Virus record (IMG/VR): IMGVR_UViG_3300033069_001193 | Coordinates: 21,783-85,782 of that record | Length of the DNA: 64,000 bases | Strand: one strand, 5' to 3' | Source: a virus | Lineage: Duplodnaviria; Caudoviricetes | Shown: one piece after another, positions 561-57,430 of the stretch | How the letters are laid out: every line of letters begins with the position of its first letter | How positions within the stretch are numbered: position 1 is the first letter of the stretch | Program-made: the position numbers and the translations under genes | Notes under the pieces: model-generated | Databases searched by the model: none | The model's input: only the letters and a program-made list of their open reading frames with translations | What the model was told of the DNA's origin: nothing

Positions 561-851
561 GTGAGCGACACTCAATTGCTTCGTGAGTACGTCAGGTTGG
601 TGCTAGAGATGCCACACCTCGAGCTCGACCCCGCGGGTGACACCGTCGTCGATTTCCGGATTGAGCGAATGCCCATCCCGGAGGAGGCGAGGCGCGCCCT
701 AATGTTGGCCTTCCAACGAGGCGGCTTTGTGGGCGAGTGGCAAGGGCAAGACGTCGTCTTCTCACCAGACGGGGCGCGCCCAGCCGGGCCGGGCGATTCT
801 GGGCTTCTGCGGCTACCAGACGACTGGCAAGCGACTGCTGTCTTCGCCTGA
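561..851 (+). CDS. leader-bearing hypothetical protein (putative virion cargo)
   Basis: N-terminus (M)SDTQLLREYVRLVLE matches the shared leader; lone plus-strand gene between minus-strand genes; GTG start inferred. Confidence 0.65.
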   Translation: MSDTQLLREYVRLVLEMPHLELDPAGDTVVDFRIERMPIPEEARRALMLAFQRGGFVGEWQGQDVVFSPDGARPAGPGDSGLLRLPDDWQATAVFA

Positions 852-855
852 CACA

Positions 856-1377
856 TCAGGCCGCCTCCGCGTCCTCGAAGGCCACATAGGTTCCGTGCGA
901 CCCGAGGCCCTTCCGAACGTGTCCCAAGGACTCGCAGAAGACCAGATACTGTGCCGTCTTCTCCCGGATGGCCGTGACCTCACCGGTGATCGCTTCCTTG
1001 TCCCACAGCTGCCGCTTGAAGGCCACTCGTTGGCCCACGGAATATTGGGGGACCACCCCATGCTGTTGTACCCATGCCTCAACGACCTTTTCATGGATAC
1101 GGTGCCGCAGGTTGACGATCTCATCCAACACGCCGACCAGCGAACTGTCTGAATCCCACATGTGGCGATTGTCGAGCTCCTTGGCCACCTCGTAGCCGTC
1201 GTCGTGAAAGCGACAGGCGCTCGTCAGCTGTTCCAGAATGTCATGTTGCTCCTCGACGGTCGGATCCACACCTCCTCCCGACTTGAGCCACCGCAGTACT
1301 TTGGGCAGCAGGACTCGGGCAATTTCCAGGTCGATCTTTTCATCGTAGTGTGACGGGCGCTTTGCCTCTTCATTCAT
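856..1377 (-). CDS. hypothetical protein
   Basis: 173-aa ORF; start overlaps the dnaE-C stop (ATGA). Confidence 0.75.
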   Translation of the reverse strand: MNEEAKRPSHYDEKIDLEIARVLLPKVLRWLKSGGGVDPTVEEQHDILEQLTSACRFHDDGYEVAKELDNRHMWDSDSSLVGVLDEIVNLRHRIHEKVVEAWVQQHGVVPQYSVGQRVAFKRQLWDKEAITGEVTAIREKTAQYLVFCESLGHVRKGLGSHGTYVAFEDAEAA

Positions 1378-2777
1378 GCGATCACCTTCACCTTGAATTT
1401 GGCCGTCGACAGACCGTATTCGTCACGACGAACTTCCGCCACGCACAGCTTGAACGGTTCGGGCAGCTCCTTGCAACCCCACAGCGTCAAACGCAGGGGC
1501 TTGCCGATGGGACCGGTGACATAGGCCTGAACGTATTCCTTACCGTTCTTCGTCTTCTTCTTGACGCCAGCAGAAGGGGCAGCGCCCTTCTTACCAGCGG
1601 CCAGGACGGTAACGAACCAGACGATGTCAGTCTGGCCCGTCTCTAGGTCCTCGATCGCTCTGACGTCTTTCTCGTCCAACCTCTCGAAGATGAAGGGATC
1701 GAACATCATAGTGACATCGGCGGTGCCGAAGAGTTCAGCCTGGAACTCAACGAGTTGACGCTGGGTCCACTCGGCACCATAAGGCTCGGCCAGTCCTCGG
1801 GCCAGAGCATAGAAGTTCTTGAGGCCCTCGTGTGGATCTTTCCTGGTGGAGCGCTTGATGAGCGCATTGTGGTCCCTGACACGAACCTTGGTCTCCTCAG
1901 ATCCCTTGCGGACAGGTACCGTCTCCTCGTAGCTGCCCAACAGGGTCTCGTACATGTGTCGGTACGACTTAAAGACCTTGTCGGGGCCGATGCAGTTCAG
2001 GCTGTCGAAGGCACGCACCTTGATGAGGGCCTCCAGGGCCTTGCGGTTGAACTTCGACGGGCGCCAGGTGCCGTCCTCATTGTAGAGGAGCTCCTCAATC
2101 GTCTTCGGTGGGCGAGCAGAGCGCCGCATCTCTTCGAGTTCTTCGATCGCTGAATCACCGACGCCCTTGATCGACGTGATGCTAGGCATCAGCTTCTTGC
2201 CAGGAAGGACGCGCCAGCTGACAGTCGCATAGCTCACGTCGACGGGCACGATCTGATAGCCCAATGCACGTGCCTCGCCGAAGGCCTTAGCTCGTTGATC
2301 AGGACTGTGCGACATCGACTCCAGATATGCCGACAGCCACTGTTCTTCGTAGTACGTCAGTAGCCAGGCGCACCAGTAGGAGTCGATGGCGTAAGCTACC
2401 GCGTGCGACTTGTTGAAGCCGTAACCAGCGAAGAAAAGGATCTTGTCGTACAGGTTGTTGGCGACGCTCTCTGCGTAACCGTTAGCGATGCAGCCTTTGA
2501 CGAACCCGTCTCGGGTTTCCTGGGCGGCCTTCTTGGCCGCCTCGCCGCCCGAGATGCTGCGCTTCATGATGGCCCGACGCACCTCGTCGCACTTCTCCTT
2601 CGGGAAGCCGGCGACCTTCTCGGCCAGTTCCATCACCTGCTCCTGAAAAATTATACAGTTGTGCACGAGAAGGCCATTTGCGAAGAAGTTATGGTTCTTC
2701 TTGACCTGGATGTCGTACACGGGCTGCACCGGAGCGCGCTTGATTGCGCGAATCTTGACAGGAACTACGTCAGGCAT
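1374..2777 (-). CDS. dnaE: DNA polymerase III alpha, C-terminal part, fused to the C-half of a split intein
   Basis: ATG at 2777 with GAGGTGG SD; 40-aa IntC ending VHN then CIIFQEQVM; intact FAGYGFNKSHAVAY motif, HhH region and OB-like C-terminus. Confidence 0.92.
   Translation of the reverse strand: MPDVVPVKIRAIKRAPVQPVYDIQVKKNHNFFANGLLVHNCIIFQEQVMELAEKVAGFPKEKCDEVRRAIMKRSISGGEAAKKAAQETRDGFVKGCIANGYAESVANNLYDKILFFAGYGFNKSHAVAYAIDSYWCAWLLTYYEEQWLSAYLESMSHSPDQRAKAFGEARALGYQIVPVDVSYATVSWRVLPGKKLMPSITSIKGVGDSAIEELEEMRRSARPPKTIEELLYNEDGTWRPSKFNRKALEALIKVRAFDSLNCIGPDKVFKSYRHMYETLLGSYEETVPVRKGSEETKVRVRDHNALIKRSTRKDPHEGLKNFYALARGLAEPYGAEWTQRQLVEFQAELFGTADVTMMFDPFIFERLDEKDVRAIEDLETGQTDIVWFVTVLAAGKKGAAPSAGVKKKTKNGKEYVQAYVTGPIGKPLRLTLWGCKELPEPFKLCVAEVRRDEYGLSTAKFKVKVIA
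2658..2777 (-). mobile_element. split intein C-terminal half (IntC, 40 aa)
   Basis: MPDVVPVKIRAIKRAPVQPVYDIQVKKNHNFFANGLLVHN: block F (VYDIQV), block G (HNFFANG...VHN), Cys at +1; basic overall. Confidence 0.92.
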
Positions 2778-3249
2778 CGTCCACCTCGACAATATCGAAC
2801 TCATCGAAGCAACACACTTCTTGATCGAGCATGCCGTCTTTCAAGCCCTCAAAAAGACCCGAGCCCGTGTTACGATTGTAGAACATCGCATCATTGTCAC
2901 GATAGTCATCGATGAGCTTCACTTCGGTCCCCTCATCGAACCACTCTCCGGGACGAGAGACGTATTTGACCCGTTTAGCTGGTTGTAGAGCCGTAGATGA
3001 AAAGAAGCCTTCCACACCATCACGCATCATCTTGACGTGAACAATTCTCTCGTTAAGATGGTCTGTTTGCAGACGTTCACCCTCGTCAACTACCCTGATC
3101 ACGTTGGAACATGCAGTTGTCTTCTCTACCCACAGTGGGTCAAGAGGTGACGGATGATGTGGACACGCATGCCAGTCGTGTTGACGTTCACGCTCGAGCA
3201 GGCAAAACACACCCGTCAGGTGCGTGTAGCAAACAACGTAATCCTTCAT
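2770..3249 (-). CDS. hypothetical protein lying between the dnaE halves
   Basis: 159-aa ORF whose stop overlaps the IntC start region (ATGCCTGA); possibly two fused small units. Confidence 0.6.
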   Translation of the reverse strand: MKDYVVCYTHLTGVFCLLERERQHDWHACPHHPSPLDPLWVEKTTACSNVIRVVDEGERLQTDHLNERIVHVKMMRDGVEGFFSSTALQPAKRVKYVSRPGEWFDEGTEVKLIDDYRDNDAMFYNRNTGSGLFEGLKDGMLDQEVCCFDEFDIVEVDDA

Positions 3250-3665: not shown

Positions 3666-3667
3666 GC

Positions 3668-4408
3668 CTAAATTGTCCTCAATTTGTGTGGATAGTTCAC
3701 GGCCTCAGATTCCCAAACACGCCTCACCATGTAACCACGTGCCTCTGCAGCACGAGTGAATGATTCGTCGAGTCGATACTGTCGCTTCATCTTGGACGTC
3801 AATTCGTGTTTAGCACGGTTGCCGTGCCAATAGTCACCGTCAAATTCGACGAGCAAATTCTCAATCGGAACGTAGAAATCAAACTCATGATTGATGCCAT
3901 CGATGCGATGCTTGTGAACGACGTTATCACCATGCACCTCAATCATCTTTGTTTTGAACGCCAATTCCGCTTTCGAATTTCGCTTACGAGGAGGTTGATT
4001 ACGTAGACCAGCGCTGATCTTCAGCGAGTGCTCTTCAAAGAAGCCAGGCTCATGTGACTTCATGTGCCACGTCAATCCACGCTGACGCTTGCAAACTTTG
4101 CCACAGATCGTACACGCAATAGATTTCTGTTCTTCAGTCGCTGAACAGTACGATCGATGCGATCGCAGCGATGTGTTTGACGTGAAAACCTTGCCACACG
4201 CATCGCACAGAAATTCCCCTTCTTTCCTGACGTTCTCACGGAGTTTGGTAACGTTGAGCTTAGCGATGTGCTCGTCTGTGAACTTTCGACCTTTGTACGT
4301 TTGTCGACGCCATTCTGACAAACACTTGACGCTACATGCAACCGAACGTTCATTTCTTGTCGAATACGTCTTTCTGCACGTCTGACATTTCCTCTCTAGT
4401 TTGCTCAT
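3668..4408 (-). CDS. free-standing Vsr-like (EDxHD-type) homing endonuclease with C2H2 zinc fingers
   Basis: C-terminal HEFDFYVP..LLVEFDGDYWH...VRRVWESE (Vsr/DUF559-like); N-terminal CxxC...CxxxC and two C2H2-like fingers; ATG at 4408; lower GC than flanks. Confidence 0.82.
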   Translation of the reverse strand: MSKLERKCQTCRKTYSTRNERSVACSVKCLSEWRRQTYKGRKFTDEHIAKLNVTKLRENVRKEGEFLCDACGKVFTSNTSLRSHRSYCSATEEQKSIACTICGKVCKRQRGLTWHMKSHEPGFFEEHSLKISAGLRNQPPRKRNSKAELAFKTKMIEVHGDNVVHKHRIDGINHEFDFYVPIENLLVEFDGDYWHGNRAKHELTSKMKRQYRLDESFTRAAEARGYMVRRVWESEAVNYPHKLRTI

Positions 4409-4730
4409 CTTCCAGCGCTGCTCCTGAAAGATAAGTATAGTCCTTGATCGAGAGGATTTCGTCATCAAGCGTAAGCTGCCCGGCCTTGATCCATCCACGT
4501 TGCGTCATGACGAGATGGTCTGCCGTGAGTTTGATGACTCCTACATCAGTGTCAAGCTCAATCACTTCTTTCACACCATTGCAAACCGCCGCAACGATTT
4601 CATCCTGCTCGAGCTCGCCAGTCTCCTCGTTGTACGAAGGAAGCGTGACACCGACCATTTGTTGATCAACGATTTCCTTGATCGTGAATTCACCGTAGTC
4701 AGTCATCACTTTCGCATCCCCCGTCAAACA
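4350..4730 (-). mobile_element. split intein N-terminal half (IntN, ~126 aa)
   Basis: CLTGDAKV (block A) ... TADHLVMTQRGWIKAGQL (block B), then an acidic tail and a stop, with no terminal His-Asn. Confidence 0.92.
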
Positions 4731-7250
4731 GGAGAACGTCTTCTTCAGGATTTCATTGATGCGCTTGTCGCCCCATTCGATCTCCTTGCCTTCGTTCTTC
4801 GCCTCGAGGTACAGCTTGTCGACCTTGGCGGCAAGAGGACCTGGACGGTAGATCGACGTCAGGGTCGCGATGTCGATGACGCTCTTGGGTTGAGCCCTCA
4901 CGAAGAGACGCTGTGCGCCGGTTCCGGTGCACTGGAAGATACCAGCCCAGCGGCCCCGAGCGTAGACCTCATAGGGCTTGGGATCATCGAAGTTGATGAC
5001 GTTAGGCGCCAGGTGCGTTTCGTACCAGGCCTTGATCTGGTCGAAGGTGGGCGTCGGATTGCCTTCCTTCATCAGGATGAGCTCGATGGTTCGCTCGATG
5101 AGCCGCATCGTCTCCAGGCCCAGGAGATCGTACTTGATGAACTCGCCCACCTTCTCCAGGTGCTTGTAGTTCACGCCCTCGACCCAGGGTGACTGCGGTT
5201 CACGAACGTCGCCCTTCCCCTTTGACGTGACCAGGGGCATCTTGCTGGGCAGGTCGTCGGCGATCAACACGCCACCGGCGTGGCGACCCAGCGACCTGTT
5301 CTGCTTGAAGAGCACCTTGATGGACTCGGCGACGACCGGATTCCGGTCGATGAAGTCGCGAAACGACGGGCTGACGGGTTGCGTGCACTCGTCGGTGCAA
5401 CCCGAGCAAATGGGACGAGCGTTGGGCTCGTGGCGCTTGGCGCAGACAAAGGCCATCGCGTCGTCGTAGGTGAGGACGAACAGGTTCTTGTCGTCGCCTT
5501 CCTTAGTCGTGGCCTTGCGTACCTCGTCCTCGACGGTGCGAGTGGCCGCGTTGGTCTCCTCGAAAGAAACACCGTAGAACTTCCCGATGTCTTTCACGAG
5601 GGTTTTCAATTTGAACGTATTGTAGTTCGAGATGGGGACAACGTTCTCCCAACCGAAGAAGTCACGCAGCTGGGCCAGAACCTTGTCACGATCGGCCAGA
5701 TCGGTGTCGATGTCTGGCGCGCCCTTCCTATAGACGCTGAGGAAGCGGGCAAAAGGCAGATCCCAGAACAACGGGTCGAGGTCGGTGATGTAGAGGACGT
5801 AAGCGACCAGCGAACCGCCGCCCGAACCGCGCGCAGGGCCCACCAGGCACACTTTTCGCGCGAGCTCCATGATTTTCTGGTAGCTGATGAAGTACACCGC
5901 GTTCTTCATCGCCTTGATGACGCCCAGTTCCTCCTTCAGGCGGGCAACGTACTCTGGCTTGTCCTGAAGCCCGCGCTTAGTCAAGCCGACCTTGCACAGG
6001 TCAACCAGGTGGTTAAAGGGTGTGGTCCCCTCGGGCACCAGAAGCTTGGTCGGAAACTTGGGTGACCGGTCAGGAGGAACCTCCCCAATGACCTGGTGTG
6101 CGATGTCGTGGGTCCGCTCGATGGCCTCGCACACTAGCTCGTCATCGTAGAACGACGTCCCCACCTTTGACTTCAGGTACTCATCCCACACCTGAGCGGC
6201 ATTCTTCGGGTACAGCTCACACTTCAGGTCGTCCTTCGACTTAGGCAGCGACTCCGGATCGTAGGCCGCGTAGTTCATGAAGCCGAGCTTCTTGTAGAGC
6301 TCGCGGTCCTTCCAGCGATCGGGATGGTAGTAGTGAGCATCACAGGTGACGACTAGCTGCTTGGTCGTCCCAGCCCGACGGGCGAACTCGATGATGGCTC
6401 GGTTGACCAAGTTCTGGGCGGGCAGCCGATTGAACTGCAACTCCAGGTAGTAGTTGCCCACACCGACCGCACTGGTCATCTGGTCGTAGACGTTGCCGAT
6501 GCCCGCAATGCACTTCTCGAGCAGCAGCGGGTCGTCGAGCAACTTCTCCGAGAAGTCATCGAACTTGATCTTCTGGAGCTCTTGGAAGACGGCATAGGCG
6601 GGCATCCCGCCGATGCAGGCGGAGGAGACGACGATGTTGCCTTCTTTACCTGCCTCACGCAGCACCTTCCAGTCGATGCGGGGGAAACCGTAGAAGCCCT
6701 TGAGGTACGCCTTGGAGCAGGCAGCGAAGATGCTGAGCAGGCCTTTTTGGTTCTTGGGCAGGACGACCAGATGGTGCCGACGCTTGATGGGATTGAAGTG
6801 TTTGGTCGACTTGGTCTCGTCCTCATTTTCGATGGTGAGGGCGTTGGTCATCTCGATGTCTTCGGTCTCGTCATTGCCGTCGACGATGGCAATGACCTTC
6901 GTTGCGAGCTTCTCCTGCTCCTTGGCCAGCTTCTCAGCCGCCTTCTTGTCAGCCTTCGCCTGCTCGGCCGCCTCGACGTGGCGTTGCCACTCTTCGAGGT
7001 CAGGGTGGTAGTAGGCCTCCACCCCCGGGATGTACTTGAAGTGCTTGTCCTTGTTGGCCTTCGCCCAGTCCTCGACCCACAACTGCGCGTGGGCATAACT
7101 CGACATGTTCCCATGCTCAGTGATGGCATGGGCGTCGAGTCCATTTTCCATGCAAAACTTAAAGTGATCATCAGGATACCCGAGTCCATCAAAACTCGAG
7201 AACATCGTGTGATTGTGAAGGCCAACAAACCGGTTCGGAGCTCGACTCAT
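4350..7250 (-). CDS. dnaE: DNA polymerase III alpha, N-terminal part (PHP + palm), fused to IntN
   Basis: LHNHTMFS, AITEHG and VVTCDAHY PHP motifs; GPARGSGGGSLVAY; PDIDTD; GRHAGGV; KYDLLGL; ends in IntN. Confidence 0.95.
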   Translation of the reverse strand: MSRAPNRFVGLHNHTMFSSFDGLGYPDDHFKFCMENGLDAHAITEHGNMSSYAHAQLWVEDWAKANKDKHFKYIPGVEAYYHPDLEEWQRHVEAAEQAKADKKAAEKLAKEQEKLATKVIAIVDGNDETEDIEMTNALTIENEDETKSTKHFNPIKRRHHLVVLPKNQKGLLSIFAACSKAYLKGFYGFPRIDWKVLREAGKEGNIVVSSACIGGMPAYAVFQELQKIKFDDFSEKLLDDPLLLEKCIAGIGNVYDQMTSAVGVGNYYLELQFNRLPAQNLVNRAIIEFARRAGTTKQLVVTCDAHYYHPDRWKDRELYKKLGFMNYAAYDPESLPKSKDDLKCELYPKNAAQVWDEYLKSKVGTSFYDDELVCEAIERTHDIAHQVIGEVPPDRSPKFPTKLLVPEGTTPFNHLVDLCKVGLTKRGLQDKPEYVARLKEELGVIKAMKNAVYFISYQKIMELARKVCLVGPARGSGGGSLVAYVLYITDLDPLFWDLPFARFLSVYRKGAPDIDTDLADRDKVLAQLRDFFGWENVVPISNYNTFKLKTLVKDIGKFYGVSFEETNAATRTVEDEVRKATTKEGDDKNLFVLTYDDAMAFVCAKRHEPNARPICSGCTDECTQPVSPSFRDFIDRNPVVAESIKVLFKQNRSLGRHAGGVLIADDLPSKMPLVTSKGKGDVREPQSPWVEGVNYKHLEKVGEFIKYDLLGLETMRLIERTIELILMKEGNPTPTFDQIKAWYETHLAPNVINFDDPKPYEVYARGRWAGIFQCTGTGAQRLFVRAQPKSVIDIATLTSIYRPGPLAAKVDKLYLEAKNEGKEIEWGDKRINEILKKTFSCLTGDAKVMTDYGEFTIKEIVDQQMVGVTLPSYNEETGELEQDEIVAAVCNGVKEVIELDTDVGVIKLTADHLVMTQRGWIKAGQLTLDDEILSIKDYTYLSGAALEDEQTREEMSDVQKDVFDKK
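4432..4438 (-). promoter_or_regulatory. putative late promoter ATACTTA for the endonuclease
   Basis: Exact element embedded in the IntN coding tail, 23 nt before the ATG at 4408. Confidence 0.55.
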
Positions 7251-9716: not shown

Positions 9717-10259
9717 TCAGCCATCGCTCGGATCCCACGTCTGCTCGTGGCCTGAATCATCCATCTTTTTGACACGCATCCTGTTGCCGTCTGGCGTCAT
9801 GGTCGCGTATTCACCGCCCTTGAACCGGGTATCAGGTCCAGACTTGTAGAGCTGCTTCTTGACGCGAGCCACAGCAGGAGCGCCGTAGCGGCCACCGCCC
9901 GGGTAGACCTTGTACGTCTCCTTGGCCTTTGAAGGCGCGCGCGGGGCCCTAGGTTCACCAGGCACGCCAGCAGCTGGTGCCATAGCAGGATCCTGACGCA
10001 ACCTGACTACACCGGCACGACGCAGTTTCTTGGCCATGTCAGGTTCAATGTACTTCTCGTCGGCCAGAATCGCATTTCGATCTTCTCGACCGATGCCAGC
10101 ACTGAGCAGGGCGACTCGGATCCGTTCAATGTTGCCGACCCATGACGTCACCTCACCTGTGAAGTCATCGACCGAATGCACCACGGTTTCGCGAGCGTCC
10201 AAGGTCTCCGCTTCCTCGCGGAGAAGTCCACGCAATTGTCCAACAGTGATCTTGATCAC
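9717..10259 (-). CDS. leader-bearing hypothetical protein
   Basis: GTG at 10259 overlaps the upstream stop; (M)IKITVGQLRGLLREE leader. Confidence 0.7.
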   Translation of the reverse strand: MIKITVGQLRGLLREEAETLDARETVVHSVDDFTGEVTSWVGNIERIRVALLSAGIGREDRNAILADEKYIEPDMAKKLRRAGVVRLRQDPAMAPAAGVPGEPRAPRAPSKAKETYKVYPGGGRYGAPAVARVKKQLYKSGPDTRFKGGEYATMTPDGNRMRVKKMDDSGHEQTWDPSDG

Positions 10260-10837
10260 ATTCCCAGCGCATTCTGAGCGCATTTGCGCCCCAACAGGTA
10301 AACGTGCTTCTCGTGTCTGTCTGCAATTGATTGCAGCAAGTTCTCGATACCAGACGTGGTGGTGCCGTTCTGATCCATGCTTTGCAACGCCATGTCAACG
10401 TACTGCAAGAGATTGCGTTCCGCACTCAGCGACGCCTTTGCGAGCTCACTGGTGTGTGGAACGGTCTGCGGTGAGTCCATATCCTGGGCGAGTCTCACCA
10501 TTTGATGCAGCTGCGTCACCAAGGTGACGTTCTGCTCGCTGCCCAGGCCCACCGCCTTCTCAGCCACCTCGTCGGCGTCTTCTAGTGTCCGCTCGTACAG
10601 CTTGTAGAACAGTTCATGGTCGCCGTAGAACTGGTCTCCCTTGGCGACCCAATGGTGCGTCTGGTGCAACATGGCCAGGTAACGCAAGGAAGCCAATAGC
10701 TGTGACAGCTCAGCATAAGGCACGCCTGCGTGGCTGGCCAACGAGTTGTCGTAGGCAAGCTCAGGAGGCGGTCCCGCAGAGGGTGCACCGCCCTCCTCAG
10801 ATGCTGCGACCTGGATCCATTCAGCCAGCGTCCTCAT
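10256..10837 (-). CDS. dps: Dps/ferritin-like protein
   Basis: HQTHHWVAKGDQFYGDHELFYKLYE...DADEVAE matches the Dps ferroxidase-centre pattern; ~35-aa N-terminal extension. Confidence 0.75.
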   Translation of the reverse strand: MRTLAEWIQVAASEEGGAPSAGPPPELAYDNSLASHAGVPYAELSQLLASLRYLAMLHQTHHWVAKGDQFYGDHELFYKLYERTLEDADEVAEKAVGLGSEQNVTLVTQLHQMVRLAQDMDSPQTVPHTSELAKASLSAERNLLQYVDMALQSMDQNGTTTSGIENLLQSIADRHEKHVYLLGRKCAQNALGM

Positions 10838-10849
10838 CGTTGAGATCCT

Positions 10850-12010
10850 TCACTTCAGGATGCAGGTGAAGCCGACCTTGCCTTGGTCAGACGGATGTAC
10901 CGTCCACTCCAAACGCATCGGTTCGCCCGCCTGTGCCTGCCGACGATTCCAGTTTTCACAGAAGACGTCAAGGGCCCGTTCATCGACGGGCCGGAAGCTA
11001 CCGTGGTGAGGCAACCAGCCGACGCAGGGGACCAGCGTCTGCTTGGCATTGCCTTCGCCAAGGCGGTACTTCCTGATGCCCAGCGGCATGATGCTCTCCT
11101 TGATCTGGAAGACCCGAGCGGCCCTCTCGAGGTATTGATCGCGGGTCAGCTGACTCTCAACGAGGGTCCAGACTTCGTCGACCTGCTCCTTAAACTCGGG
11201 CATCATGCCCTCCTCAATGAGCTCATGCTCGGCCTGACCTTTAAGCCAGGTGAGAGTCTCATTGAGGGCGTCACGCTTCAGTGCCATATCTTCCTTCTCC
11301 TTGATGAGCCGCTGAACGTTTTTCAGCAGCTTCATCTCATCGACCTCGACACCAGACGTCTCCCTGAGACTGACACAGTAGCGATGTACTGCAATCTCTT
11401 CCCAGGAATGCTCGATGTTCTTCCCGTACTCGTACATCAGGTTTTGTGCCTGTGCCTGGTACCAGGCCTCCGTCAGTTCAGGACCTTGACCCGTCCGGAC
11501 TGTGTCGCCGAGACGTTCCTTGTCCTTCGTCGGATCGTGACCGATAGGCTGCTGGGCTGGCTTCTTGATGCCCGCCTCGTGCAGTTTCTTCTGCCGGAAG
11601 ATGGCACGCAGGCCATCATCCTTGGGGAAGCGTTTGATCATCTCACGAATTGCATTGAGAGACAGTCGACCCGCGGCCGCGGCGCGAACCTCAGGGCTCC
11701 TGTCATTGGCAGCCCTGGACAGGAAACGTTCCGGGACGATACGAGCAGCAAACTTGCGGATCTCTGGATCACGGTGATCCAGCCACTTAGGCGTCAATCG
11801 AGACTCCCACTCTAAGGCGTCGATTCGGCCCGTCCGGGTCAGCACGTCGAGGCGGTCGTTGGCAGCGGCAACCACTTCGTGAAGCCGTCCTTCCGTCACC
11901 ACGACCGGTCCCAGGACTCGACCGATCTCGGCCTTGAGCTCTTGCCCGTGCCGTTCCTCGTCGAGCGTCCTGTCTAGCAGCTTTTGAAGGGAATTGAGCT
12001 TCAGGTGCAT
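10850..12010 (-). CDS. late hypothetical protein, probably virion/head-associated
   Basis: 386 aa; leader-like N-terminus, HEAT-like repeats, several L-x-E sites; late element plus SD upstream. Confidence 0.7.
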   Translation of the reverse strand: MHLKLNSLQKLLDRTLDEERHGQELKAEIGRVLGPVVVTEGRLHEVVAAANDRLDVLTRTGRIDALEWESRLTPKWLDHRDPEIRKFAARIVPERFLSRAANDRSPEVRAAAAGRLSLNAIREMIKRFPKDDGLRAIFRQKKLHEAGIKKPAQQPIGHDPTKDKERLGDTVRTGQGPELTEAWYQAQAQNLMYEYGKNIEHSWEEIAVHRYCVSLRETSGVEVDEMKLLKNVQRLIKEKEDMALKRDALNETLTWLKGQAEHELIEEGMMPEFKEQVDEVWTLVESQLTRDQYLERAARVFQIKESIMPLGIRKYRLGEGNAKQTLVPCVGWLPHHGSFRPVDERALDVFCENWNRRQAQAGEPMRLEWTVHPSDQGKVGFTCILK

Positions 12011-12031: not shown

Positions 12032-12038
12032 TAACTAT
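12032..12038 (-). promoter_or_regulatory. putative late promoter ATAGTTA
   Basis: 21 nt upstream of the ATG at 12010, with a CAGGAG SD between. Confidence 0.6.
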
Positions 12039-26748: not shown

Positions 26749-27015
26749 TCAGACCCTACGAGTAAATGAGAACAGCGAACTGTCCAGGACGTCGTAGACC
26801 TTCTCTTCAAGCTCATCGCAGGCGTCGTTCATGGCCTGCATGGCTTCATTGCGATCTGCTAGATTATCGCTCTTGTTGATCAGCACGTAGCCGGTGATCC
26901 GGTCTCTGATCCGATTGACAAATTCGGCAGTGTCCTGCCGGAGCTGCCATTCAGGAACTCCGTGCAGGAACTCTTCCTTGATCAGTGATCGCAGGTCACC
27001 CAACCGCACCTTCAT
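26749..27015 (-). CDS. leader-bearing small helical protein
   Basis: MKVRLGDLRSLIKEE leader; ATACTTA 5 nt upstream. Confidence 0.72.
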   Translation of the reverse strand: MKVRLGDLRSLIKEEFLHGVPEWQLRQDTAEFVNRIRDRITGYVLINKSDNLADRNEAMQAMNDACDELEEKVYDVLDSSLFSFTRRV

Positions 27016-27020
27016 GTGGC

Positions 27021-27027
27021 TAAGTAT
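27021..27027 (-). promoter_or_regulatory. putative late promoter ATACTTA in a hairpin loop
   Basis: Lies in the loop of TGTGGCT/AGCCACA, overlapping the nrdJ stop. Confidence 0.6.
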
Positions 27028-31048: not shown

Positions 31049-31117
31049 GGATACCTATCTTAGGTCCAACAAGGGCCTATGTTCTACTACCGGCAAGCGG
31101 CAGCGCACTGTATTACT

Positions 31118-33580: not shown

Positions 33581-33587
33581 CTACTTA
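33581..33587 (+). promoter_or_regulatory. putative late promoter CTACTTA
   Basis: 6 nt before the ATG at 33594. Confidence 0.58.
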
Positions 33588-33593: not shown

Positions 33594-34478
33594 ATGAGTG
33601 AGCGATTGTTGAGGGAATACATGTCACTCGTCATCGAAAAGATCAGGTCGAGGAAGACTCCTGGAGGCGAGACCTTCGACCTCAAGCGATTCAAATCGCT
33701 TGATGACATCAATGACATGCACGACTACGCGGGCAAGTACCTTGACAAGCTGGGAACGGGGTCTTCCCGTGCTGCCTACCTGATGAGCGGGCGCTATGCC
33801 CTGAAGATCGCTCTCAACAACAAGGGCATCGGACAGAACGAGGCCGAGCTTGACGTCTACACCAACCCAGCCACCAAGCGCATCATCGCCAAGATCTATG
33901 CAGCAGACGAGCGAGACAAGTGGCTCGTCGCCGACCTGGTAAAACCGGTCACCAGCGAGAAAGAGTTCGAAGAACTGGCGGGCGTCAGTTGGAAGGACTT
34001 CGGTAAGCAGGTCTACGAAGGCCTCAAGTTGCATGACGTCGACAATGCATCAGACTTTGCCAAGGCCGTCGTGGCTACGGCCCACAGCAATCGTCTGTTG
34101 TTGGGCGACCTGGTCGACCAACTGAACAGCCCATTCAAGAGCGTCATCGACCACTGGGGCAAGACGCCTGACGGACGGATCGTATTGCTCGACTACGGGT
34201 TCACCGAAGACGTCGACAGGCAACACTACGCCCCAGAACGCGAGTTGCGACGTGCCGCCGCCGCACGTCCACAGGCTGTCGTTGCCCCCAGGCGTGGTGA
34301 CAGCGTCGACAGCTTTGCTAAGACGAAGCGAAAGTCGGCTGGCGAAGAGGAAAAGCCAGCAGACAAGAGTGCGAGGACTGCGGCGCGAGTGCCCAAGGCG
34401 ATTGCTGCGCGCGCCGCAGAAAAGTCACGGGTCCCAAGCGATGAAGAGTTGACCCGGACGCGAAAGGTGGGAGGCTAG
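33594..34478 (+). CDS. leader-bearing protein kinase-like protein
   Basis: MSERLLREYMSLVIE leader; LGTGSSRAAY Gly-loop, ALKIA Lys, QNEAE Glu, GDL catalytic Asp, VLLDYGF (DFG-like). Confidence 0.75.
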   Translation: MSERLLREYMSLVIEKIRSRKTPGGETFDLKRFKSLDDINDMHDYAGKYLDKLGTGSSRAAYLMSGRYALKIALNNKGIGQNEAELDVYTNPATKRIIAKIYAADERDKWLVADLVKPVTSEKEFEELAGVSWKDFGKQVYEGLKLHDVDNASDFAKAVVATAHSNRLLLGDLVDQLNSPFKSVIDHWGKTPDGRIVLLDYGFTEDVDRQHYAPERELRRAAAARPQAVVAPRRGDSVDSFAKTKRKSAGEEEKPADKSARTAARVPKAIAARAAEKSRVPSDEELTRTRKVGG

Positions 34479-37710: not shown

Positions 37711-37932
37711 CTACCTCTGTTGCGACTTCCGCTGCCCACCCAAGGGTCCCGTGTGTCCCATCACTGCCCCTCCGCCAACGCCACAGAACTCGTTGAAACC
37801 TTCTTCTGAAGGTTCGTCTGACTCGTTGCCCGCTTCTTCGCCGCCGTCCACTGGTAGGAGCTGGTTCGGAACCCGCGCCTGTGATTCTCGCACCGCTAGC
37901 CTAATGTAGGTAGCGAGCAATTCCTTGCTCAT
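37711..37932 (-). CDS. leader-bearing small acidic protein
   Basis: MSKELLATYIRLAVRE leader; own late element and own terminator. Confidence 0.7.
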   Translation of the reverse strand: MSKELLATYIRLAVRESQARVPNQLLPVDGGEEAGNESDEPSEEGFNEFCGVGGGAVMGHTGPLGGQRKSQQR

Positions 37933-37937: not shown

Positions 37938-37944
37938 TAAGTAT
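37938..37944 (-). promoter_or_regulatory. putative late promoter ATACTTA
   Basis: 5 nt upstream of the ATG at 37932. Confidence 0.6.
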
Positions 37945-51360: not shown

Positions 51361-52020
51361 TCACTTGACAAGTTTCCATGTCATAGTGATTTTGTTTCTC
51401 TCGGATTTTTGAGTAATCAGAATGTGTTTCCTTCCCGCTTGACGAACAAATGCATTGCCCCTGGGCCGTACGTCAACGGTATACTCGAGTTCATCCATGA
51501 GAACTGAACGCATTTCATTACTGATGAAACCGATGCCCTGGGGCGATTCTAGGGTCACGTAAATCACAGTTGACGCTGGTGTAACTCTGACTTTGACATC
51601 TGAAGAGATTAACCCGACAAATTCTTCGATAGCGTCGTAAATGGACACTACGTTGTTAGGCGTCTTGTCTTCGCTATGATCGAGTAGCTTCTCTTCGATC
51701 TTGTGTCTGACAACTGCCTCGAGCCTGTCCATCGGGTCAGAAATGTCTTGCCACAAGTCAGATCCCAAATAGTCCAGACCGGGCGGCGGAACATTACCTG
51801 AGAACAGCGACATTGCCCACCTTTCACATTCAGCGATGTTGTCATTGATGAACTCTACTGCGTATTCCTCAGCGATCTCCTCTTCAAGTGCATCACTAAT
51901 CAAAGATGAGTACTCTCGATTGATGAACTCGTCAGTCCACGACTCCAAAGTCGATAGAAAATCCGGCACATCATTCACAACCTCGATGATACGCTGAAGC
52001 TCACCAAGTCTGATCTTCAC
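51361..52020 (-). CDS. leader-bearing mosaic protein inserted in the tail operon
   Basis: (M)KIRLGELQRIIE leader; visibly AT-richer; halves resemble 54101-55351 and 53381-54073. Confidence 0.75.
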   Translation of the reverse strand: MKIRLGELQRIIEVVNDVPDFLSTLESWTDEFINREYSSLISDALEEEIAEEYAVEFINDNIAECERWAMSLFSGNVPPPGLDYLGSDLWQDISDPMDRLEAVVRHKIEEKLLDHSEDKTPNNVVSIYDAIEEFVGLISSDVKVRVTPASTVIYVTLESPQGIGFISNEMRSVLMDELEYTVDVRPRGNAFVRQAGRKHILITQKSERNKITMTWKLVK

Positions 52021-52025: not shown

Positions 52026-52032
52026 TAACTAT
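52026..52032 (-). promoter_or_regulatory. putative late promoter ATAGTTA
   Basis: 5 nt upstream of the GTG at 52020; enclosed by the TTCACGT/ACGTGAA inverted repeat. Confidence 0.6.
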
Positions 52033-53168: not shown

Positions 53169-53171
53169 GTG

Positions 53172-53380: not shown

Positions 53381-54073
53381 TCAGAACATGTAGTTGTGCC
53401 ACTCTCCGAGTGACTCATCCCACATGTCGCCGCTTTCATCGTCGACTGCGAGGCCGCTGAACATGACGACACTCTGACCGTCGTGCTCGATAGCCATCTT
53501 CTCCCAGTCTTTCTTCAGCCAGCTTCGAAGTTCAACCTCGTTGGTGTCGTTTGGACTCGACAACGTCCAAAAGACCCTGTCGGCGAACTCATCCTCGTCC
53601 ACGTCACGCAGGATCTGAACAGCAACGGGAGAGATGGCTTTCGCCTCAGCCGCGTCGATCTCAACCGGTGCGCTGCCAGGACTATCATCCATGAACTCGA
53701 TGTTCATCTCGTAAGTGTCCGCATTAGCGTCGGTGATTCCACCCGCGATGGTCACCGTGGTGTTCCCGCGGCGATACAGGCCGTCTTCATAGTTGTACCC
53801 CAACTCATCAACCAACGTGTAGCTCACCTCGTCGGCAAGCAGGTCCCTGGCACCTCTCGAGGCACTTTCGCCAGGCATCGACAAGTTGATAGTGATATCG
53901 TCCTGTTGTTTGACGACGACGTAAGGTCCTAGCATCGACACGAACTCATCGAGCGCGTCTTCGACGTCCATCTGCTGCGGGTTTTTGCGCAGTTCTCGGC
54001 GGCGCGCCTGATCGTCGGTCATTGCTTCGGCAAGCATGCGACGCAACCGCCCGAATGTCAATCTGATGATCAT
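53381..54073 (-). CDS. leader-bearing acidic protein inserted in the tail operon
   Basis: MIIRLTFGRLRRMLAE leader; variant ATACGTA element 9 nt upstream. Confidence 0.75.
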   Translation of the reverse strand: MIIRLTFGRLRRMLAEAMTDDQARRRELRKNPQQMDVEDALDEFVSMLGPYVVVKQQDDITINLSMPGESASRGARDLLADEVSYTLVDELGYNYEDGLYRRGNTTVTIAGGITDANADTYEMNIEFMDDSPGSAPVEIDAAEAKAISPVAVQILRDVDEDEFADRVFWTLSSPNDTNEVELRSWLKKDWEKMAIEHDGQSVVMFSGLAVDDESGDMWDESLGEWHNYMF

Positions 54074-54100
54074 GCCAGCGCCTACGTATTACTTGCTGCG

Positions 54101-55351
54101 TCAGCTTGGTGCCGTACCGTCAACAGACGTCTCACCTTTGGCCGGCTCATCTCCCAACCGGCCGCGGACGCGCTCGCCGATAGCCCGACCCTTGTCAGTC
54201 ACATCATACAAAGCAGCATTGCGCGTACCAGGTGCAATGCCGACATTATCGATGGTGTCACCGACCATGCCTGCTTGGCTGAAGTAGGTGACGTTCGAGC
54301 CTTGCTTGTACGGCTTGTCTTCTAGGAACGCGACGACCTTCAACACGTCGTCTTTTCTCATGGGACCACGAACGCTCAAGACATAGCAGATCAAATCAGA
54401 CTTCGTGAAGCCGCTGATGTCGACCACCGCACGTTCAGGAGCTCGCTCAATGATCTCTACCGCGTGAAACGTTTCGACCCTGTCTTGGATTGCTGCCTCA
54501 AAGTCAGGATCATTGAGCATGCGCTCGATGATCGCGCTCATCCGCTTGTCATTGCGGTAGAGCCCCCGGTTGCCCCGGGCCCAAGATCCGACGTCCACCT
54601 CATCGCGCCACTTCTCAGAAAAGTCGAACTCGTCATGCTCTTGGAGCTCGTGATGAAAGTACAAGTACGACGGGGCAATGACAGGTTCCGTGAAGACGAC
54701 CTTTCCACGTAGGACACCTTTGACAGTCCCGGTCACCATGTTAGGAATGCCCTTCAGGACAGAAACTGTCGCACCCATGACGCTCTTCACGGGAGAGAAC
54801 TGAATGACATCACCTTTCTTGATGTCACGCCAGACTTTGTCGAATTCCTCACCAACTCGGTTGTTGAAGTCCTTCATGTCTGCAACGTCGTCCCAATCAT
54901 CCAAATGGTTATAATCCGGCGGCGTCCAGTTCTTGTGCTTCTTACGCATGACCATGACATTGGGATCAAGTGCGTTCACGCCTGTCTGTTCGTACTGCAC
55001 AATTGCATTGAAGAACTCGTATCGTGCGACGGCCAACAATCGCTCGAGCGGATCATGGTCCGGCCACGTGTCTTTGAAGTTCTTCAACGCTGCAGGTGGT
55101 TGCTCGCCCGAGAAGGCAATCTTTGCCCATTCAGAACACTCATCCCAGTAATCACTGACGAACTGTTCTGCGTTTGATTCAGCCAGCTCGTCGGCGGATG
55201 CATGCGATTCGTACCTGTAGTCGCGATCAATGTACCGCACGATGGCATTCCTCACCACGGCGAGGAATTCGTCGACTGCATGCTTAGGATTAGGCTTTCC
55301 GCCGGCCTCAGTGAGGAGACGACGCAAGTGACCGAGCGTCATTTGAATCAT
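54101..55351 (-). CDS. leader-bearing multidomain protein, possible C-terminal winged helix
   Basis: MIQMTLGHLRRLLTE leader; C-terminal LYDVTDKGR wing-like motif. Confidence 0.75.
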   Translation of the reverse strand: MIQMTLGHLRRLLTEAGGKPNPKHAVDEFLAVVRNAIVRYIDRDYRYESHASADELAESNAEQFVSDYWDECSEWAKIAFSGEQPPAALKNFKDTWPDHDPLERLLAVARYEFFNAIVQYEQTGVNALDPNVMVMRKKHKNWTPPDYNHLDDWDDVADMKDFNNRVGEEFDKVWRDIKKGDVIQFSPVKSVMGATVSVLKGIPNMVTGTVKGVLRGKVVFTEPVIAPSYLYFHHELQEHDEFDFSEKWRDEVDVGSWARGNRGLYRNDKRMSAIIERMLNDPDFEAAIQDRVETFHAVEIIERAPERAVVDISGFTKSDLICYVLSVRGPMRKDDVLKVVAFLEDKPYKQGSNVTYFSQAGMVGDTIDNVGIAPGTRNAALYDVTDKGRAIGERVRGRLGDEPAKGETSVDGTAPS

Positions 55352-55356
55352 ACGTC

Positions 55357-55363
55357 TAACTAT
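55357..55363 (-). promoter_or_regulatory. putative late promoter ATAGTTA
   Basis: 5 nt upstream of the ATG at 55351; within the 10-bp TTGAATCATA/TATGATTCAA inverted repeat. Confidence 0.62.
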
Positions 55364-56414: not shown

Positions 56415-56470
56415 CGAAGCACAGTATCAAGAATCCTTGACACGTACATTCGATAAAAATCGTAGTCGAC

Positions 56471-56959
56471 TTAAAATTGTAGAACCGCGTTATCGTACCT
56501 GAGCGTCAGGCTGATCTCAACCGCGCCACCATCTTCATAGGTGAGCTCACCGAAGTTCGCCTCGGTGATGAAGGCGCCCTTGATGTCCCACAGCTCGACG
56601 ATGGTGCCCACTGGGTCCAGCAGCTTCAGTTGCACGTCACGCTTGTAGAAGTCTGCATAGCCGGCGCGGCCCGAGACTGACTCGAAGTGGAGGCGGATCC
56701 ACTCCATGATCTGTTGAGCGCCCGAGGGGGCGATCGGATCGTGCAGGGTGACGGCGATCGTATTGAACTTCGTCAAGCCTGCCAGGTAACGACGCGCGTT
56801 GATGAACGGCATCTCGACCTCTTCGGTCGTCACCGTCGGTCTCGCAGCCGTCTTACAGATGTAGGCATCAATGCCCTCAATCATGAGGATCCAACGGTTC
56901 TTGCGCTTCGGCTCAAACTTGTTGGGCAGCATCGACGTGACGTCAAGTGTCTCAGCCAT
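56471..56959 (-). CDS. tail tube protein (T4 gp19-like)
   Basis: FEPKRKNRW, TLHDPIAPSGAQQIMEW, YKRDVQLKLLDPVG..VELWDIKGAF, LTLRYD. Confidence 0.92.
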   Translation of the reverse strand: MAETLDVTSMLPNKFEPKRKNRWILMIEGIDAYICKTAARPTVTTEEVEMPFINARRYLAGLTKFNTIAVTLHDPIAPSGAQQIMEWIRLHFESVSGRAGYADFYKRDVQLKLLDPVGTIVELWDIKGAFITEANFGELTYEDGGAVEISLTLRYDNAVLQF

Positions 56960-56984
56960 CGTAGTCTCCAGTCACCGGATGTCG

Positions 56985-56991
56985 TAAGTAT
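56985..56991 (-). promoter_or_regulatory. putative late promoter ATACTTA
   Basis: 25 nt upstream of the tube ATG, with a GGAG SD between. Confidence 0.62.
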
Positions 56992-57010
56992 TCGTCAGGC
57001 ACCGTTAACC

Positions 57011-57430
57011 TCAACGGCTCGGTGGATTAGAGCTCGTCCGCCGACGTGCCAGGTCACCTGCGGGAGTTTGCTTGCCAGCAGTCAGCTCAGGCATGCTATC
57101 AAGGGCCTGGAGCACTCGATTGATGCCGTTCAGCAGGGTGTGTGCCTGATCGGAAGCCTTCGGACTGGTCGCCGACTGGTACAACTCTCCCAAAGCCTGC
57201 TTGGCCCCGTTGAGGTTATCCTTCAATTTCTTGAGAGAGGACGACTGCCCACCGGCCGCGGCGATGCTGCCGCCGGCCTGCGACAGCTCTTCCTCGACCA
57301 ACAGGCGCAGGCGTGCTTCAGTCATCTTGACTGACTTGCCCGGCTTCTGCTTGAAGCGGCGGACCATCTCGTCACTGACCAGCTCAGTGAGCTCTGATTT
57401 CGTGATCTTCACTTTTCTTTCCTTGCTCAC
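57011..57430 (-). CDS. small protein with two leader-like segments
   Basis: KVKITKSELTELVSDE and VKMTEARLRLLVEEE, followed by a coiled coil. Confidence 0.72.
   Translation of the reverse strand: MSKERKVKITKSELTELVSDEMVRRFKQKPGKSVKMTEARLRLLVEEELSQAGGSIAAAGGQSSSLKKLKDNLNGAKQALGELYQSATSPKASDQAHTLLNGINRVLQALDSMPELTAGKQTPAGDLARRRTSSNPPSR

What the first reader, a model, noticed from the sequence alone, without database searches (positions are those of the whole stretch)
561..57430. Dispersed family of unrelated proteins sharing an N-terminal leader: candidate modular capsid-cargo (ejected payload) system
Seen in sequence: about 11 ORFs with unrelated bodies begin with an amphipathic leader ending in (L/I/V)-x-E. 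Type 1 examples are IKITVGQLRGLLREE (10259), MKVRLGDLRSLIKEE (27015), KIRLGELQRIIE (52020), MIIRLTFGRLRRMLAE (54073), MIQMTLGHLRRLLTE (55351), KVKITKSELTELVSDE (57430) and MHLKLNSLQKLLDRTLDEE (12010). Type 2 examples are SDTQLLREYVRLVLE (561), MSERLLREYMSLVIE (33594) and MSKELLATYIRLAVRE (37932). The Dps-like protein starts MRTLAEWIQVAASEE. Many are single-gene inserts in replication or tail operons, some on the opposite strand, each with its own ATANTTA element. Established: T4 internal proteins carry a ~10-aa capsid-targeting sequence removed by the gp21 protease at (I/L)-x-E. Inference: 'late promoter + leader' acts as a portable cassette that recruits arbitrary enzymes into the head for injection with the DNA.
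Basis: partly seen in the sequence, partly recalled or inferred. Interest (0 to 1): 0.9.

Follow-up and report, generated by a model that had tools for sequence, protein, structure and literature searches.

The report
Shared head-loading leader on phage proteins
About a fifth of the genes on this fragment of an uncultured 340-kb T4-type jumbo phage start with one of two short leader peptides that end in the cutting motif of the T4-type head protease. This is most likely an enlarged version of phage T4's "load into the head, then clip" signal, but packaging has not been shown.

Summary
Ten ORFs in the window, and at least 18 on the 85.8-kb contig, begin with a type-1 leader (M-K-I-[RT]-x-G-x-L-R-x-[LI]-I-x-E) or a type-2 leader (M-S-x-x-L-L-R-E-Y-x-x-L-V-x-E).

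Profiles of these leaders hit only N-termini of real ORFs, here and in 1.5 Mb of relatives (46 hits, 0 decoys, p about 1e-50).

- Conservation is at the protein level and ends at an almost invariant Glu.
- Most leader genes sit 4-6 nt after an ATAGTTA-like element. The same element precedes the sheath, tube and capsid genes but not the replication genes.
- All five large relatives encode a gp21-type (Peptidase_S77) prohead protease.
- Their capsid protein keeps V-L-x-E|S exactly where T4 gp23 is cut.
- One kinase-like body carries type 2, type 1 or no leader in different phages.

Corrections:
- Several bodies are paralogous.
- Only one body looks like an enzyme.
- The Dps-like protein is not a member.
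- One start is at 57412, not 57430.

The same leader heads gene arrays in many other uncultured S77-protease phages. This scan has reported analogous leaders on other DNA. Packaging and cleavage remain untested.

The parts
549..555 (+). CTATTTA promoter-like element, 5 nt before the GTG start at 561
561..851 (+). Type-2 leader protein K (96 aa, GTG start); no ortholog in G001
   Evidence: 31.5 bits to the type-2 profile
9717..10259 (-). Type-1 leader protein A (180 aa, GTG start). Its C-terminal domain is shared with two out-of-window members. No upstream element.
10256..10837 (-). Dps/ferritin-like protein lying between two leader genes. Not a leader-family member by either profile.
   Evidence: PF00210, E 1.4e-10; no score
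10850..12010 (-). Type-1-like leader protein G (386 aa, HEAT/LRV-like repeats). A weak member: Asp-Arg stands where the others have x-Glu.
   Evidence: 11.8 bits; 59% identical ortholog in G001
12032..12038 (-). ATAGTTA element 21 nt before the start of G
26749..27015 (-). Type-1 leader protein B (88 aa), between the RNR and HDAC-like genes
   Evidence: (20 bits)
27021..27027 (-). ATACTTA element 5 nt before the start of B
33581..33587 (+). CTACTTA element 6 nt before the start of L
33594..34478 (+). Type-2 leader protein L (294 aa). Leader helix at residues 3-16, linker at 17-29, protein-kinase-like domain at 30-225.
   Evidence: (phrog_4301)
37711..37932 (-). Type-2 leader protein M (73 aa), next to the SSB gene
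37938..37944 (-). ATACTTA element 5 nt before the start of M
51361..52020 (-). Type-1 leader protein C (219 aa, GTG start). Shares one domain with E and another with D.
52026..52032 (-). ATAGTTA element 5 nt before the start of C
53381..54073 (-). Type-1 leader protein D (230 aa). Its only database relative is the ortholog in the nearest relative.
54083..54089 (-). ATACGTA element 9 nt before the start of D
54101..55351 (-). Type-1 leader protein E (416 aa). The ortholog in L008 has the leader joined directly to the equivalent of residue ~145.
55357..55363 (-). ATAGTTA element 5 nt before the start of E
57011..57412 (-). Type-1 leader protein F (133 aa, GTG at 57412 behind an AAGGAA site). A conserved small gene between sheath and tube across the clade.
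56471..56991 (-). Tail tube gene with an ATACTTA element 25 nt upstream (56985-56991). Reference late gene.
57437..60485 (-). Tail sheath gene 1 with an ATAGTTA element 18 nt upstream (60479-60485), conserved in G001. Reference late gene.
60518..63564 (-). Tail sheath gene 2 with an ATAGTTA element 31 nt upstream (63558-63564). Reference late gene.

Best explanation
The two leaders are lineage-specific equivalents of the phage T4 capsid-targeting sequence and propeptide.

PROPOSED MECHANISM.
1. The genes are transcribed late from a minimal ATAGTTA-like promoter. In most cases the promoter sits so close to the start codon that the mRNA has no, or almost no, 5' leader.
2. The first 14-16 residues form a helix that docks the new protein onto the scaffolding core of the assembling prohead.
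3. The gp21-type (Peptidase_S77) protease then cuts after the invariant Glu (I/L/V-x-E | A/E).
4. The mature protein stays inside the head and leaves with the DNA at infection.

WHAT IS SHOWN.
- The N-terminal position of the leader.
- Conservation at the protein level.
- The sharp Glu boundary.
- The promoter-like element shared with structural genes.
- The protease and a matching capsid-protein site in relatives.
- Leader exchange on one body family.

WHAT IS INFERRED. Docking, cleavage, packaging and injection.
For: N-TERMINAL SPECIFICITY..

SHARP BOUNDARY. Glu is found at position 14 in 44 of 48 non-redundant leaders, and information falls to about zero after position 16. Among 149 database representatives Glu-14 is 98% conserved.

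PROTEIN-LEVEL SELECTION. The invariant Leu uses four codons from two codon families. Mean nucleotide identity between leaders is 0.48.

PROTEASE.
- PF03420 scores 84-99 bits in 5 of 5 large relatives.
- It is present in 16 of 17 other large IMG/VR contigs chosen only because they carry the leader pattern, and in 6 of 6 of those at least 90% complete.

CLEAVAGE SITE. Five clade capsid proteins have Q-V-L-[KL]-E|S aligned to the F-L-T-E|A stretch of T4 gp23. That gp23 is cut at this point is from my own knowledge. T4 propeptides read from the T4 record have the same style. T4 proteases cut after Glu, and T4 internal proteins share only the leader (PMC5694885; PMC12373910; PMC3012670).

LATE-TYPE ELEMENT. 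It lies upstream of both sheath genes in G000 and G001, the tube gene, the capsid gene and a scaffold-like gene. It has no conserved counterpart at 15 replication or nucleotide-metabolism genes.

HEAD MODULE. Three small ORFs in or beside the G001 head module score on the type-1 profile, at 23, 10.9 and 9.9 bits.

MODULARITY.
- The kinase-like body carries type 2 in most homologs, a type-1-like leader in four distant ones, and none in Klebsiella phage K64-1.
- The E ortholog keeps the leader but lacks the N-domain.
- 64 type-1 proteins fall into 44 body clusters.

STRUCTURE. AlphaFold places the leader as a separate helix followed by a low-confidence linker.
Against: - No virion proteomics or N-terminal data exist for this uncultured clade.
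- The window's own contig is only about 25% of a genome. It holds no head genes and no protease.
- The leaders have no detectable sequence homology to the T4 CTS: the profiles find nothing in T4.
- No cultured phage tested carries the leader (Mel-JY01, K64-1, HTVC008M, Syn9, S-PM2, P-SSM2), so no published virion proteome can be consulted.
- The specificity of the clade's protease is inferred, not measured.
- A variant of the element (ATAGGTA) sits 3 nt before the DnaB-like helicase gene in G000. The motif is therefore not perfectly late-specific.
- No gp55 homolog was detected (uninformative).
- In other phages the leader also occurs inside proteins. Those look like fused neighbours of tandem arrays.
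Confidence: 0.6

Rival explanations
1. The leader is a late-expressed N-terminal interaction helix with a role outside the capsid. Examples are binding a common host target or chaperone, oligomerisation, or acting as a degradation or stability tag. It is not removed by the head protease.
For: - The motif is a short charged helix.
- Most bodies are small orphan proteins of the kind that often act as host-takeover factors.
- Many members lie among replication genes rather than in the head module.
- There is no direct evidence for packaging.
Against: - This reading does not explain the invariant Glu boundary that matches the protease motif.
- It does not explain the near-perfect co-occurrence with S77 proteases.
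- It does not explain the promoter element shared with structural genes.
- It does not explain the leader ORFs in and beside the head module.
Confidence: 0.17
2. The leader proteins are prohead core or scaffold accessory components. They use the helix to co-assemble with the scaffold and are degraded or expelled at maturation. They are therefore assembly parts, not injected cargo.
For: - The T4 core proteins gp22, gp67 and gp68 and the vertex protein gp24 have comparable N-terminal motifs.
- Leader ORFs lie in or beside the G001 head module.
- Many bodies are short and acidic.
Against: - A kinase-fold domain and long repeat proteins of 386 to 1019 aa are unlikely scaffold parts.
- The content is hypervariable between close relatives, which does not fit essential assembly parts.
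Confidence: 0.13
3. The shared N-terminus is only the best-conserved remnant of one diversified paralog family, with no separate signal function.
For: Several members do share body domains: C/E, C/D/P/J, A/S/I and N/O.
Against: - The bodies include a kinase fold, HEAT/LRV repeats and 73-aa proteins, with 44 BLAST clusters among 64 proteins.
- The same kinase-like body occurs with either leader type or with none.
- Conservation stops abruptly at the Glu.
Confidence: 0.05
4. The leader is a recognition tag for a modifying enzyme, such as a radical-SAM/SPASM maturase. An earlier follow-up of this scan proposed this for a different phage tag.
Against: No Radical_SAM domain was found in G000 or in three near-complete relatives, while all 14 control genomes were positive.
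Confidence: 0.02
5. The conserved start is a nucleic-acid feature, needed for translation of leaderless mRNAs or for recombination, and not a peptide signal.
For: Most members start 4-6 nt after the promoter-like element, so their mRNAs are probably leaderless.
Against: - Synonymous codons vary freely. Only 34% of identical-residue pairs use the same codon, and Leu and Arg switch codon families.
- Members that have a normal ribosome site and no element (F, A, G) keep the leader.
Confidence: 0.03

Closest known systems
Phage T4 capsid targeting sequence (CTS) of internal proteins IPI, IPII and IPIII and of Alt, removed by prohead protease gp21; and the polymorphic ip loci of T-even phages
   Same: - A short N-terminal leader is the only thing shared by otherwise unrelated, fast-evolving accessory proteins.
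- The leader ends in hydrophobic-x-Glu followed by a small residue.
- The lineage has a Peptidase_S77 protease.
- The genes carry a late-type promoter.
   Different: - There is no sequence homology to MKTYQEFIAE.
- The leader is 14-16 residues long, not 10.
- Two leader classes coexist.
- There are at least 18 genes on 86 kb, against three in T4.
- The genes are dispersed through the replication and tail modules, not held in one or two ip loci.
- Most are apparently transcribed as leaderless mRNAs.
- Packaging is unproven here.
Propeptides of T4 head proteins gp24, gp22, gp67 and gp23
   Same: - The motif style is the same. T4 gp24 starts M-A-K-I-N-E-L-L-R-E|S, and the gp23 site F-L-T-E|A aligns with the clade's V-L-x-E|S.
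- Leader-bearing small ORFs lie in or beside the head module of relative G001.
   Different: Here the motif is spread over dozens of non-structural orphan proteins.
Ejection and inner-body proteins of phiKZ-like giant phages (SPN3US, 201phi2-1), processed by an S80 protease at A/S/G-x-E
   Same: Giant phages with many head-internal proteins that are processed after Glu. Paralogs there share identical N-terminal propeptides (PMC5694885).
   Different: - A different protease family: S77 is matched here.
- P3 is Ile, Leu or Val, not Ala, Ser or Gly.
- The leader is much shorter and more uniform.
Analogous leader families reported by earlier follow-ups of this scan in other uncultured T4-type phages (e1-3862018, e1-1066390, e1-5376900, e1-5651009)
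   Same: Short lineage-specific N-terminal tags ending in [ILV]-x-E, found on many unrelated proteins of phages with a T4-type head protease.
   Different: - The tag sequences differ.
- Here there is also leader exchange on a kinase-like body, a late-type element at leaderless spacing, and a co-occurrence test with the protease.
- Those notes were not re-tested here.

Membership tests
T4-type capsid targeting sequence / gp21-processed propeptide | A shared sequence strictly at the N-terminus of otherwise dissimilar proteins | tested here: met
   All profile hits fall at start codons, and there are 44 body clusters among 64 proteins. Caveat: some bodies are paralogous.
T4-type capsid targeting sequence / gp21-processed propeptide | The leader ends in the protease motif, hydrophobic-x-Glu | tested here: met
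   Glu-14 is found in 44 of 48 leaders, and in 98% of copies in the 149 database representatives. The residue two before it is Ile, Leu or Val.
T4-type capsid targeting sequence / gp21-processed propeptide | The genome encodes a gp21-type (Peptidase_S77) prohead protease | tested here: inconclusive
   None is found on the window's own contig, but that contig is about 25% of a genome and has no head module.
T4-type capsid targeting sequence / gp21-processed propeptide | The lineage encodes the protease, and the leader co-occurs with it | tested here: met
   Present in 5 of 5 large relatives and in 16 of 17 other leader-bearing large contigs.
T4-type capsid targeting sequence / gp21-processed propeptide | Known substrates of the same phage carry the same cleavage motif | tested here: met
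   The capsid proteins of five clade genomes have V-L-[KL]-E|S aligned to the T4 gp23 site. This is a prediction by alignment, not a measured cleavage.
T4-type capsid targeting sequence / gp21-processed propeptide | Late expression together with head genes | tested here: inconclusive
   The ATAGTTA-like element is shared with sheath, tube and capsid genes and is not conserved at replication genes. No expression data exist. No gp55 homolog was found.
T4-type capsid targeting sequence / gp21-processed propeptide | Sequence homology to the T4 CTS | tested here: not met
   Both leader profiles find nothing in the T4 genome. The resemblance is one of style and register only.
T4-type capsid targeting sequence / gp21-processed propeptide | Proteins are present in virions with the leader removed, and are injected | not testable with these tools
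   The clade is uncultured, and no cultured phage carries the leader.
Radical-SAM/SPASM recognition tag | Co-occurrence with a radical-SAM enzyme | tested here: not met
   Found in 0 of 4 genomes, while all 14 control genomes were positive.
phiKZ-type (S80) processed ejection proteins | An A/S/G-x-E motif and an S80 protease | tested here: not met
   P3 is Ile, Leu or Val. The protease matches PF03420 (S77) above the family cut-off.

The most novel reading that the evidence does not exclude
The M-K-I-T-x-x-Q-L-R-x-I-I-x-E leader and its type-2 partner are a general address label of a large uncultured group of S77-protease jumbo phages.
- Each phage would load 10 to 25 or more interchangeable orphan proteins into its head for delivery with the DNA. 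These include a protein-kinase-like enzyme and long repeat proteins.
- The genes would be transcribed as leaderless late mRNAs.
- The injected-effector repertoire of such phages could then be read straight from sequence.
Probability: 0.5. Interest if true: 0.7.

Novelty: new variant of a known kind. Interest (0 to 1): 0.6.

Why it matters
- In T4, proteins that travel inside the capsid act first in the infected cell. All three T4 internal proteins block restriction systems (PMC12373910).
- If the leader marks such proteins, candidate first-strike effectors of uncultured jumbo phages can be listed by a 15-residue profile. That would give hundreds of new candidates for anti-defence functions.
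- It would also give a second, sequence-unrelated targeting tag for loading foreign proteins into T4-type capsids.
- The co-occurrence with a minimal late element at leaderless spacing bears on how these phages organise late gene expression.

Tried and rejected
- RNA or DNA element instead of a peptide: rejected by synonymous codon variation.
- Radical-SAM tag: no such enzyme in four genomes.
- Dps-like protein as a member: not scored by either profile, and its G001 ortholog does not keep the motif.
- Alt-like ADP-ribosyltransferase carrying the leader: none in five relatives.
- T4 gp55 homolog, to support a T4-type late promoter: nothing found. A single-sequence search is uninformative here.
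- Curated families for leader or bodies: nothing in Pfam, PHROGs or NCBIfam except phrog_4301 (unknown function) on the kinase-like body and weak HEAT/LRV hits.
- Cultured phages with the leader, which would have allowed use of published virion proteomes: none among T4, Mel-JY01, K64-1, HTVC008M, Syn9, S-PM2 and P-SSM2.
- Literature: no paper holds the motif strings, and none was found describing expanded CTS-like leaders in metagenomic phages.
- Homologs of D: only its ortholog in the nearest relative.
- ESM Atlas on E and G: weak leads only, a winged-helix-like C-terminus and HEAT-like repeats.
- The E-G-K residues before internal leader copies in database proteins were considered as a second protease site. 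In the one case read at DNA level they are the in-frame reading of a ribosome-binding site (AGAAGGTAAAATG). These proteins therefore look like fused neighbours of tandem arrays.

Full report
WHAT THE DNA IS

The window is bases 21783-85782 of an 85,782-bp IMG/VR viral contig that CheckV rates 25% complete. Its tail sheath finds more than 300 related viral contigs. Among them are records of 340, 324 and 309 kb that are 86-99% complete. The contig is therefore a fragment of an uncultured jumbo myovirus of about 340 kb.

The nearest cultured phages are distant. Microcystis phage Mel-JY01 has 34% identity in sheath and capsid protein.

Genes identified in the window:
- Replication and nucleotide metabolism: split DnaE, DnaB-like helicase, FEN, UvsX, SSB, RNR, ThyX, two DNA methylases, PNKP and endonuclease VII.
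- Tail module: two sheath genes, the tube gene and a baseplate hub gene.
- No head genes are present.

THE OBSERVATION

All ten leader ORFs exist.
- Type 1 reads M-K-I-[RT]-x-G-x-L-R-x-[LI]-I-x-E. It starts ORFs at 10259, 12010, 27015, 52020, 54073, 55351 and 57412, all on the minus strand.
- Type 2 reads M-S-x-x-L-L-R-E-Y-x-x-L-V-x-E. It starts ORFs at 561 and 33594 (plus strand) and at 37932 (minus strand).
The leader begins at a GTG at 57412, behind an AAGGAA ribosome site.
- Eight or nine further members lie in the 21.8 kb before the window. The contig therefore carries at least 18, roughly a fifth of its genes.

Evidence that this is more than chance:
- Loose regexes over all six frames hit only N-termini of long ORFs.
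- A profile trained on this contig gave 12 of 12 hits of at least 8 bits at start codons in the 340-kb relative G001.
- In relatives never used for training there were 46 hits of at least 10 bits and no hit on reversed sequences. 36 sat at a start codon within 20 residues of the upstream stop, against 2.2% for random positions (p = 1.4e-50).
- Through the search tool, the type-1 profile found 20 and 11 copies in two more large relatives, and none in T4, Mel-JY01 or K64-1.
- Type 2 is rarer, with four, one and zero copies in G001, G002 and G003.

NATURE OF THE CONSERVATION

- Among 48 non-redundant leaders the logo is M-[RK]-I-[TS]-x-G-[QE]-L-R-[RK]-[IL]-I-[RK]-E-[EA]. Glu is at position 14 in 44 of 48.
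- Information falls to about zero from position 17 on. The profile spans only 15 columns, so the drop is partly built in. The raw 24-residue alignments show the same boundary.
- Codons vary freely. The invariant Leu uses CTG, CTT, CTC and TTG, and Arg uses CGN and AGG. Mean pairwise nucleotide identity is 0.48. Selection therefore acts on the peptide. There is no sign of a recently spreading DNA cassette.

THE BODIES

- No member matches Pfam or NCBIfam.
- Among PHROGs, only the protein at 33594-34478 matches a family, which has no known function.
- With 34 homologs as the alignment, AlphaFold gives a confident model (pLDDT 82). The leader is a separate helix at residues 3-16, followed by a low-confidence linker and a domain whose best PDB matches are all protein kinases or aminoglycoside phosphotransferases.
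- The protein at 10850-12010 looks like a HEAT/LRV repeat protein.
- The rest are orphans, so 'arbitrary enzymes' is not supported.
- The bodies are not all unrelated. BLAST links C with E, links C, D, P and J, links A, S and I, and links N with O.
- Even so, 64 type-1 proteins from this clade fall into 44 body clusters.

MODULARITY

- The kinase-like body carries the type-2 leader in most of its 42 database homologs. Four distant homologs carry a type-1-like leader. The Klebsiella phage K64-1 homolog has no leader and starts directly at the domain.
- In the nearest relative, the ortholog of E has the leader joined directly to the equivalent of residue 145.
- The G001 ortholog of B has a shortened leader that keeps only the V-L-D-E-E end.
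- B, L and M are syntenic between this contig and G001. C, D and E have orthologs only in the nearest relative or in none.

PROMOTER-LIKE ELEMENT

- The pattern [ACT]-T-A-N-[TG]-T-A occurs 51 times on the contig, counting both strands. By my own rough estimate from base composition, chance would give about 130.
- 21 of the 51 occurrences lie 3-9 nt before a start codon of an ORF of at least 50 aa.
- Eight of the ten window members have the element. In six of the eight it lies 5-6 nt before the start codon, in D 9 nt and in G 21 nt. By analogy with T4 late promoters, the close spacing implies leaderless mRNAs. That is my inference.
- The same element lies 18-31 nt upstream of both sheath genes, conserved in G001. 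It also precedes the tube gene here, and the capsid and scaffold-like genes of G001.
- None of 15 replication or nucleotide-metabolism genes has it conserved in both genomes.
- One variant (ATAGGTA) sits before the helicase gene here, but not in G001.

LINK TO THE HEAD PROTEASE

- The contig itself has no protease, but it also lacks the whole head module.
- All five large relatives encode Peptidase_S77 above the family cut-off. In G001 it lies between the portal and capsid genes.
- In or beside that module, three small ORFs score on the type-1 profile at 23, 10.9 and 9.9 bits. Two more resemble it only by eye.
- The capsid proteins of five clade genomes share Q-V-L-[KL]-E-S, aligned to the F-L-T-E-A stretch of T4 gp23. 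From my own knowledge, T4 gp23 is cut after that Glu, residue 65.
- Read from the T4 record, ipII and ipIII start MKTYQEFIAE|A, gp24 starts M-A-K-I-N-E-L-L-R-E|S, and gp22 starts M-L-K-E-Q-L-I-A-E|A.
[quoted passage not shown] It also states that the internal proteins share nothing but the leader that packages them (PMC12373910; PMC3012670).

BEYOND THIS CLADE

- A profile search of 1.84 billion representative proteins found 255 with E up to 0.001. Nearly all of the best 150 listed hold two or three copies of the motif. This is a selection effect, because one copy cannot reach significance at that database size.
- 135 of 149 have a copy at residue 1-3. Their consensus is M-K-I-T-K-R-Q-L-R-R-I-I-R-E-E, with Glu-14 at 98%.
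- One such protein lies in a marine contig where nine consecutive genes start with the motif. Its internal copy is preceded by an in-frame ribosome site, so it looks like a fusion of array neighbours.
- A degenerate DNA pattern for the leader found at least 120 stretches in IMG/VR, often in arrays of up to nine.
- Of 17 contigs above 100 kb chosen only by size, 16 encode Peptidase_S77, including 6 of 6 that are at least 90% complete. No matched control set without the leader was run.
- Five complete or near-complete genomes (96-100%) were then searched. Four hold 9-23 copies each, largely in islands, and the fifth (G009) holds one.
- Cultured marine T4-type phages have none.

RIVALS

- A nucleic-acid function is contradicted by the codon data.
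- Pure paralogy is contradicted by the fold diversity and by the leader exchange.
- Two readings remain open. The helix may serve a purpose outside the capsid. Or the proteins may be core or assembly parts rather than injected cargo. Only proteomics or reconstitution can decide.

VERDICT

- The capsid-targeting and propeptide reading is the best-supported explanation, at about 0.6.
- It works like the T4 CTS, but it is not homologous to it in sequence.
- It is a new variant of a known kind: longer, in two classes, greatly expanded, dispersed through the genome, and tied to leaderless late starts.
- This scan has already reported analogous leaders in other uncultured T4-type phages. I found no publication describing them.

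Noticed in passing
window 1374-2804 and 4350-7250 (-): DNA polymerase III alpha is split into two ORFs about 1.5 kb apart. The downstream piece begins with a weak intein-splicing match (31.5 bits, below the Pfam cut-off). This is the subject of another note of this scan.
   Followed up: no
window 57437-60460 and 60518-63526 (-): Two tandem tail-sheath paralogs of about 1000 aa each, both behind their own ATAGTTA element. The arrangement is conserved in G001.
   Followed up: partly
window 17544-18566, 19431-20387 and 25797-26645 (-): An RNA-repair-like set: a polynucleotide kinase-phosphatase, an RlaP nucleotidyltransferase and a histone-deacetylase-family protein, all in the replication region.
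   Followed up: no
window 31052-31058 (-): An ATAGGTA variant of the late-type element lies only 3 nt before the DnaB-like helicase start. It is not conserved in G001. This is an exception to the late-gene association.
   Followed up: partly
contig positions 9395, 8145, 30228 and 31289 (window -12387, -13637, 8446, 9507): Four further ORFs have the element 5 nt before their start but no profile-detectable leader. One begins with a leader-like run ending in M-R-E-E. There may be more leader classes.
   Followed up: no
P0045-P0194; L132:374-4621: Database proteins hold two or three copies of the type-1 leader, with a median spacing of about 105 residues. A marine contig has nine consecutive genes that all start with it. 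Internal copies look like fused array neighbours, but they could be polyproteins.
   Followed up: partly
G001 259492-259973 (L104): The G001 ortholog of protein B has only a shortened leader ending in V-L-D-E-E. A separate 76-aa leader ORF lies directly upstream of it in another frame.
   Followed up: partly
window 10256-12010 (-): A Dps/ferritin-like gene is embedded between two leader genes in an apparent operon. The arrangement is conserved in G001. Its 41-residue N-terminal extension has a Pro/Gly-rich linker but no recognisable leader.
   Followed up: partly
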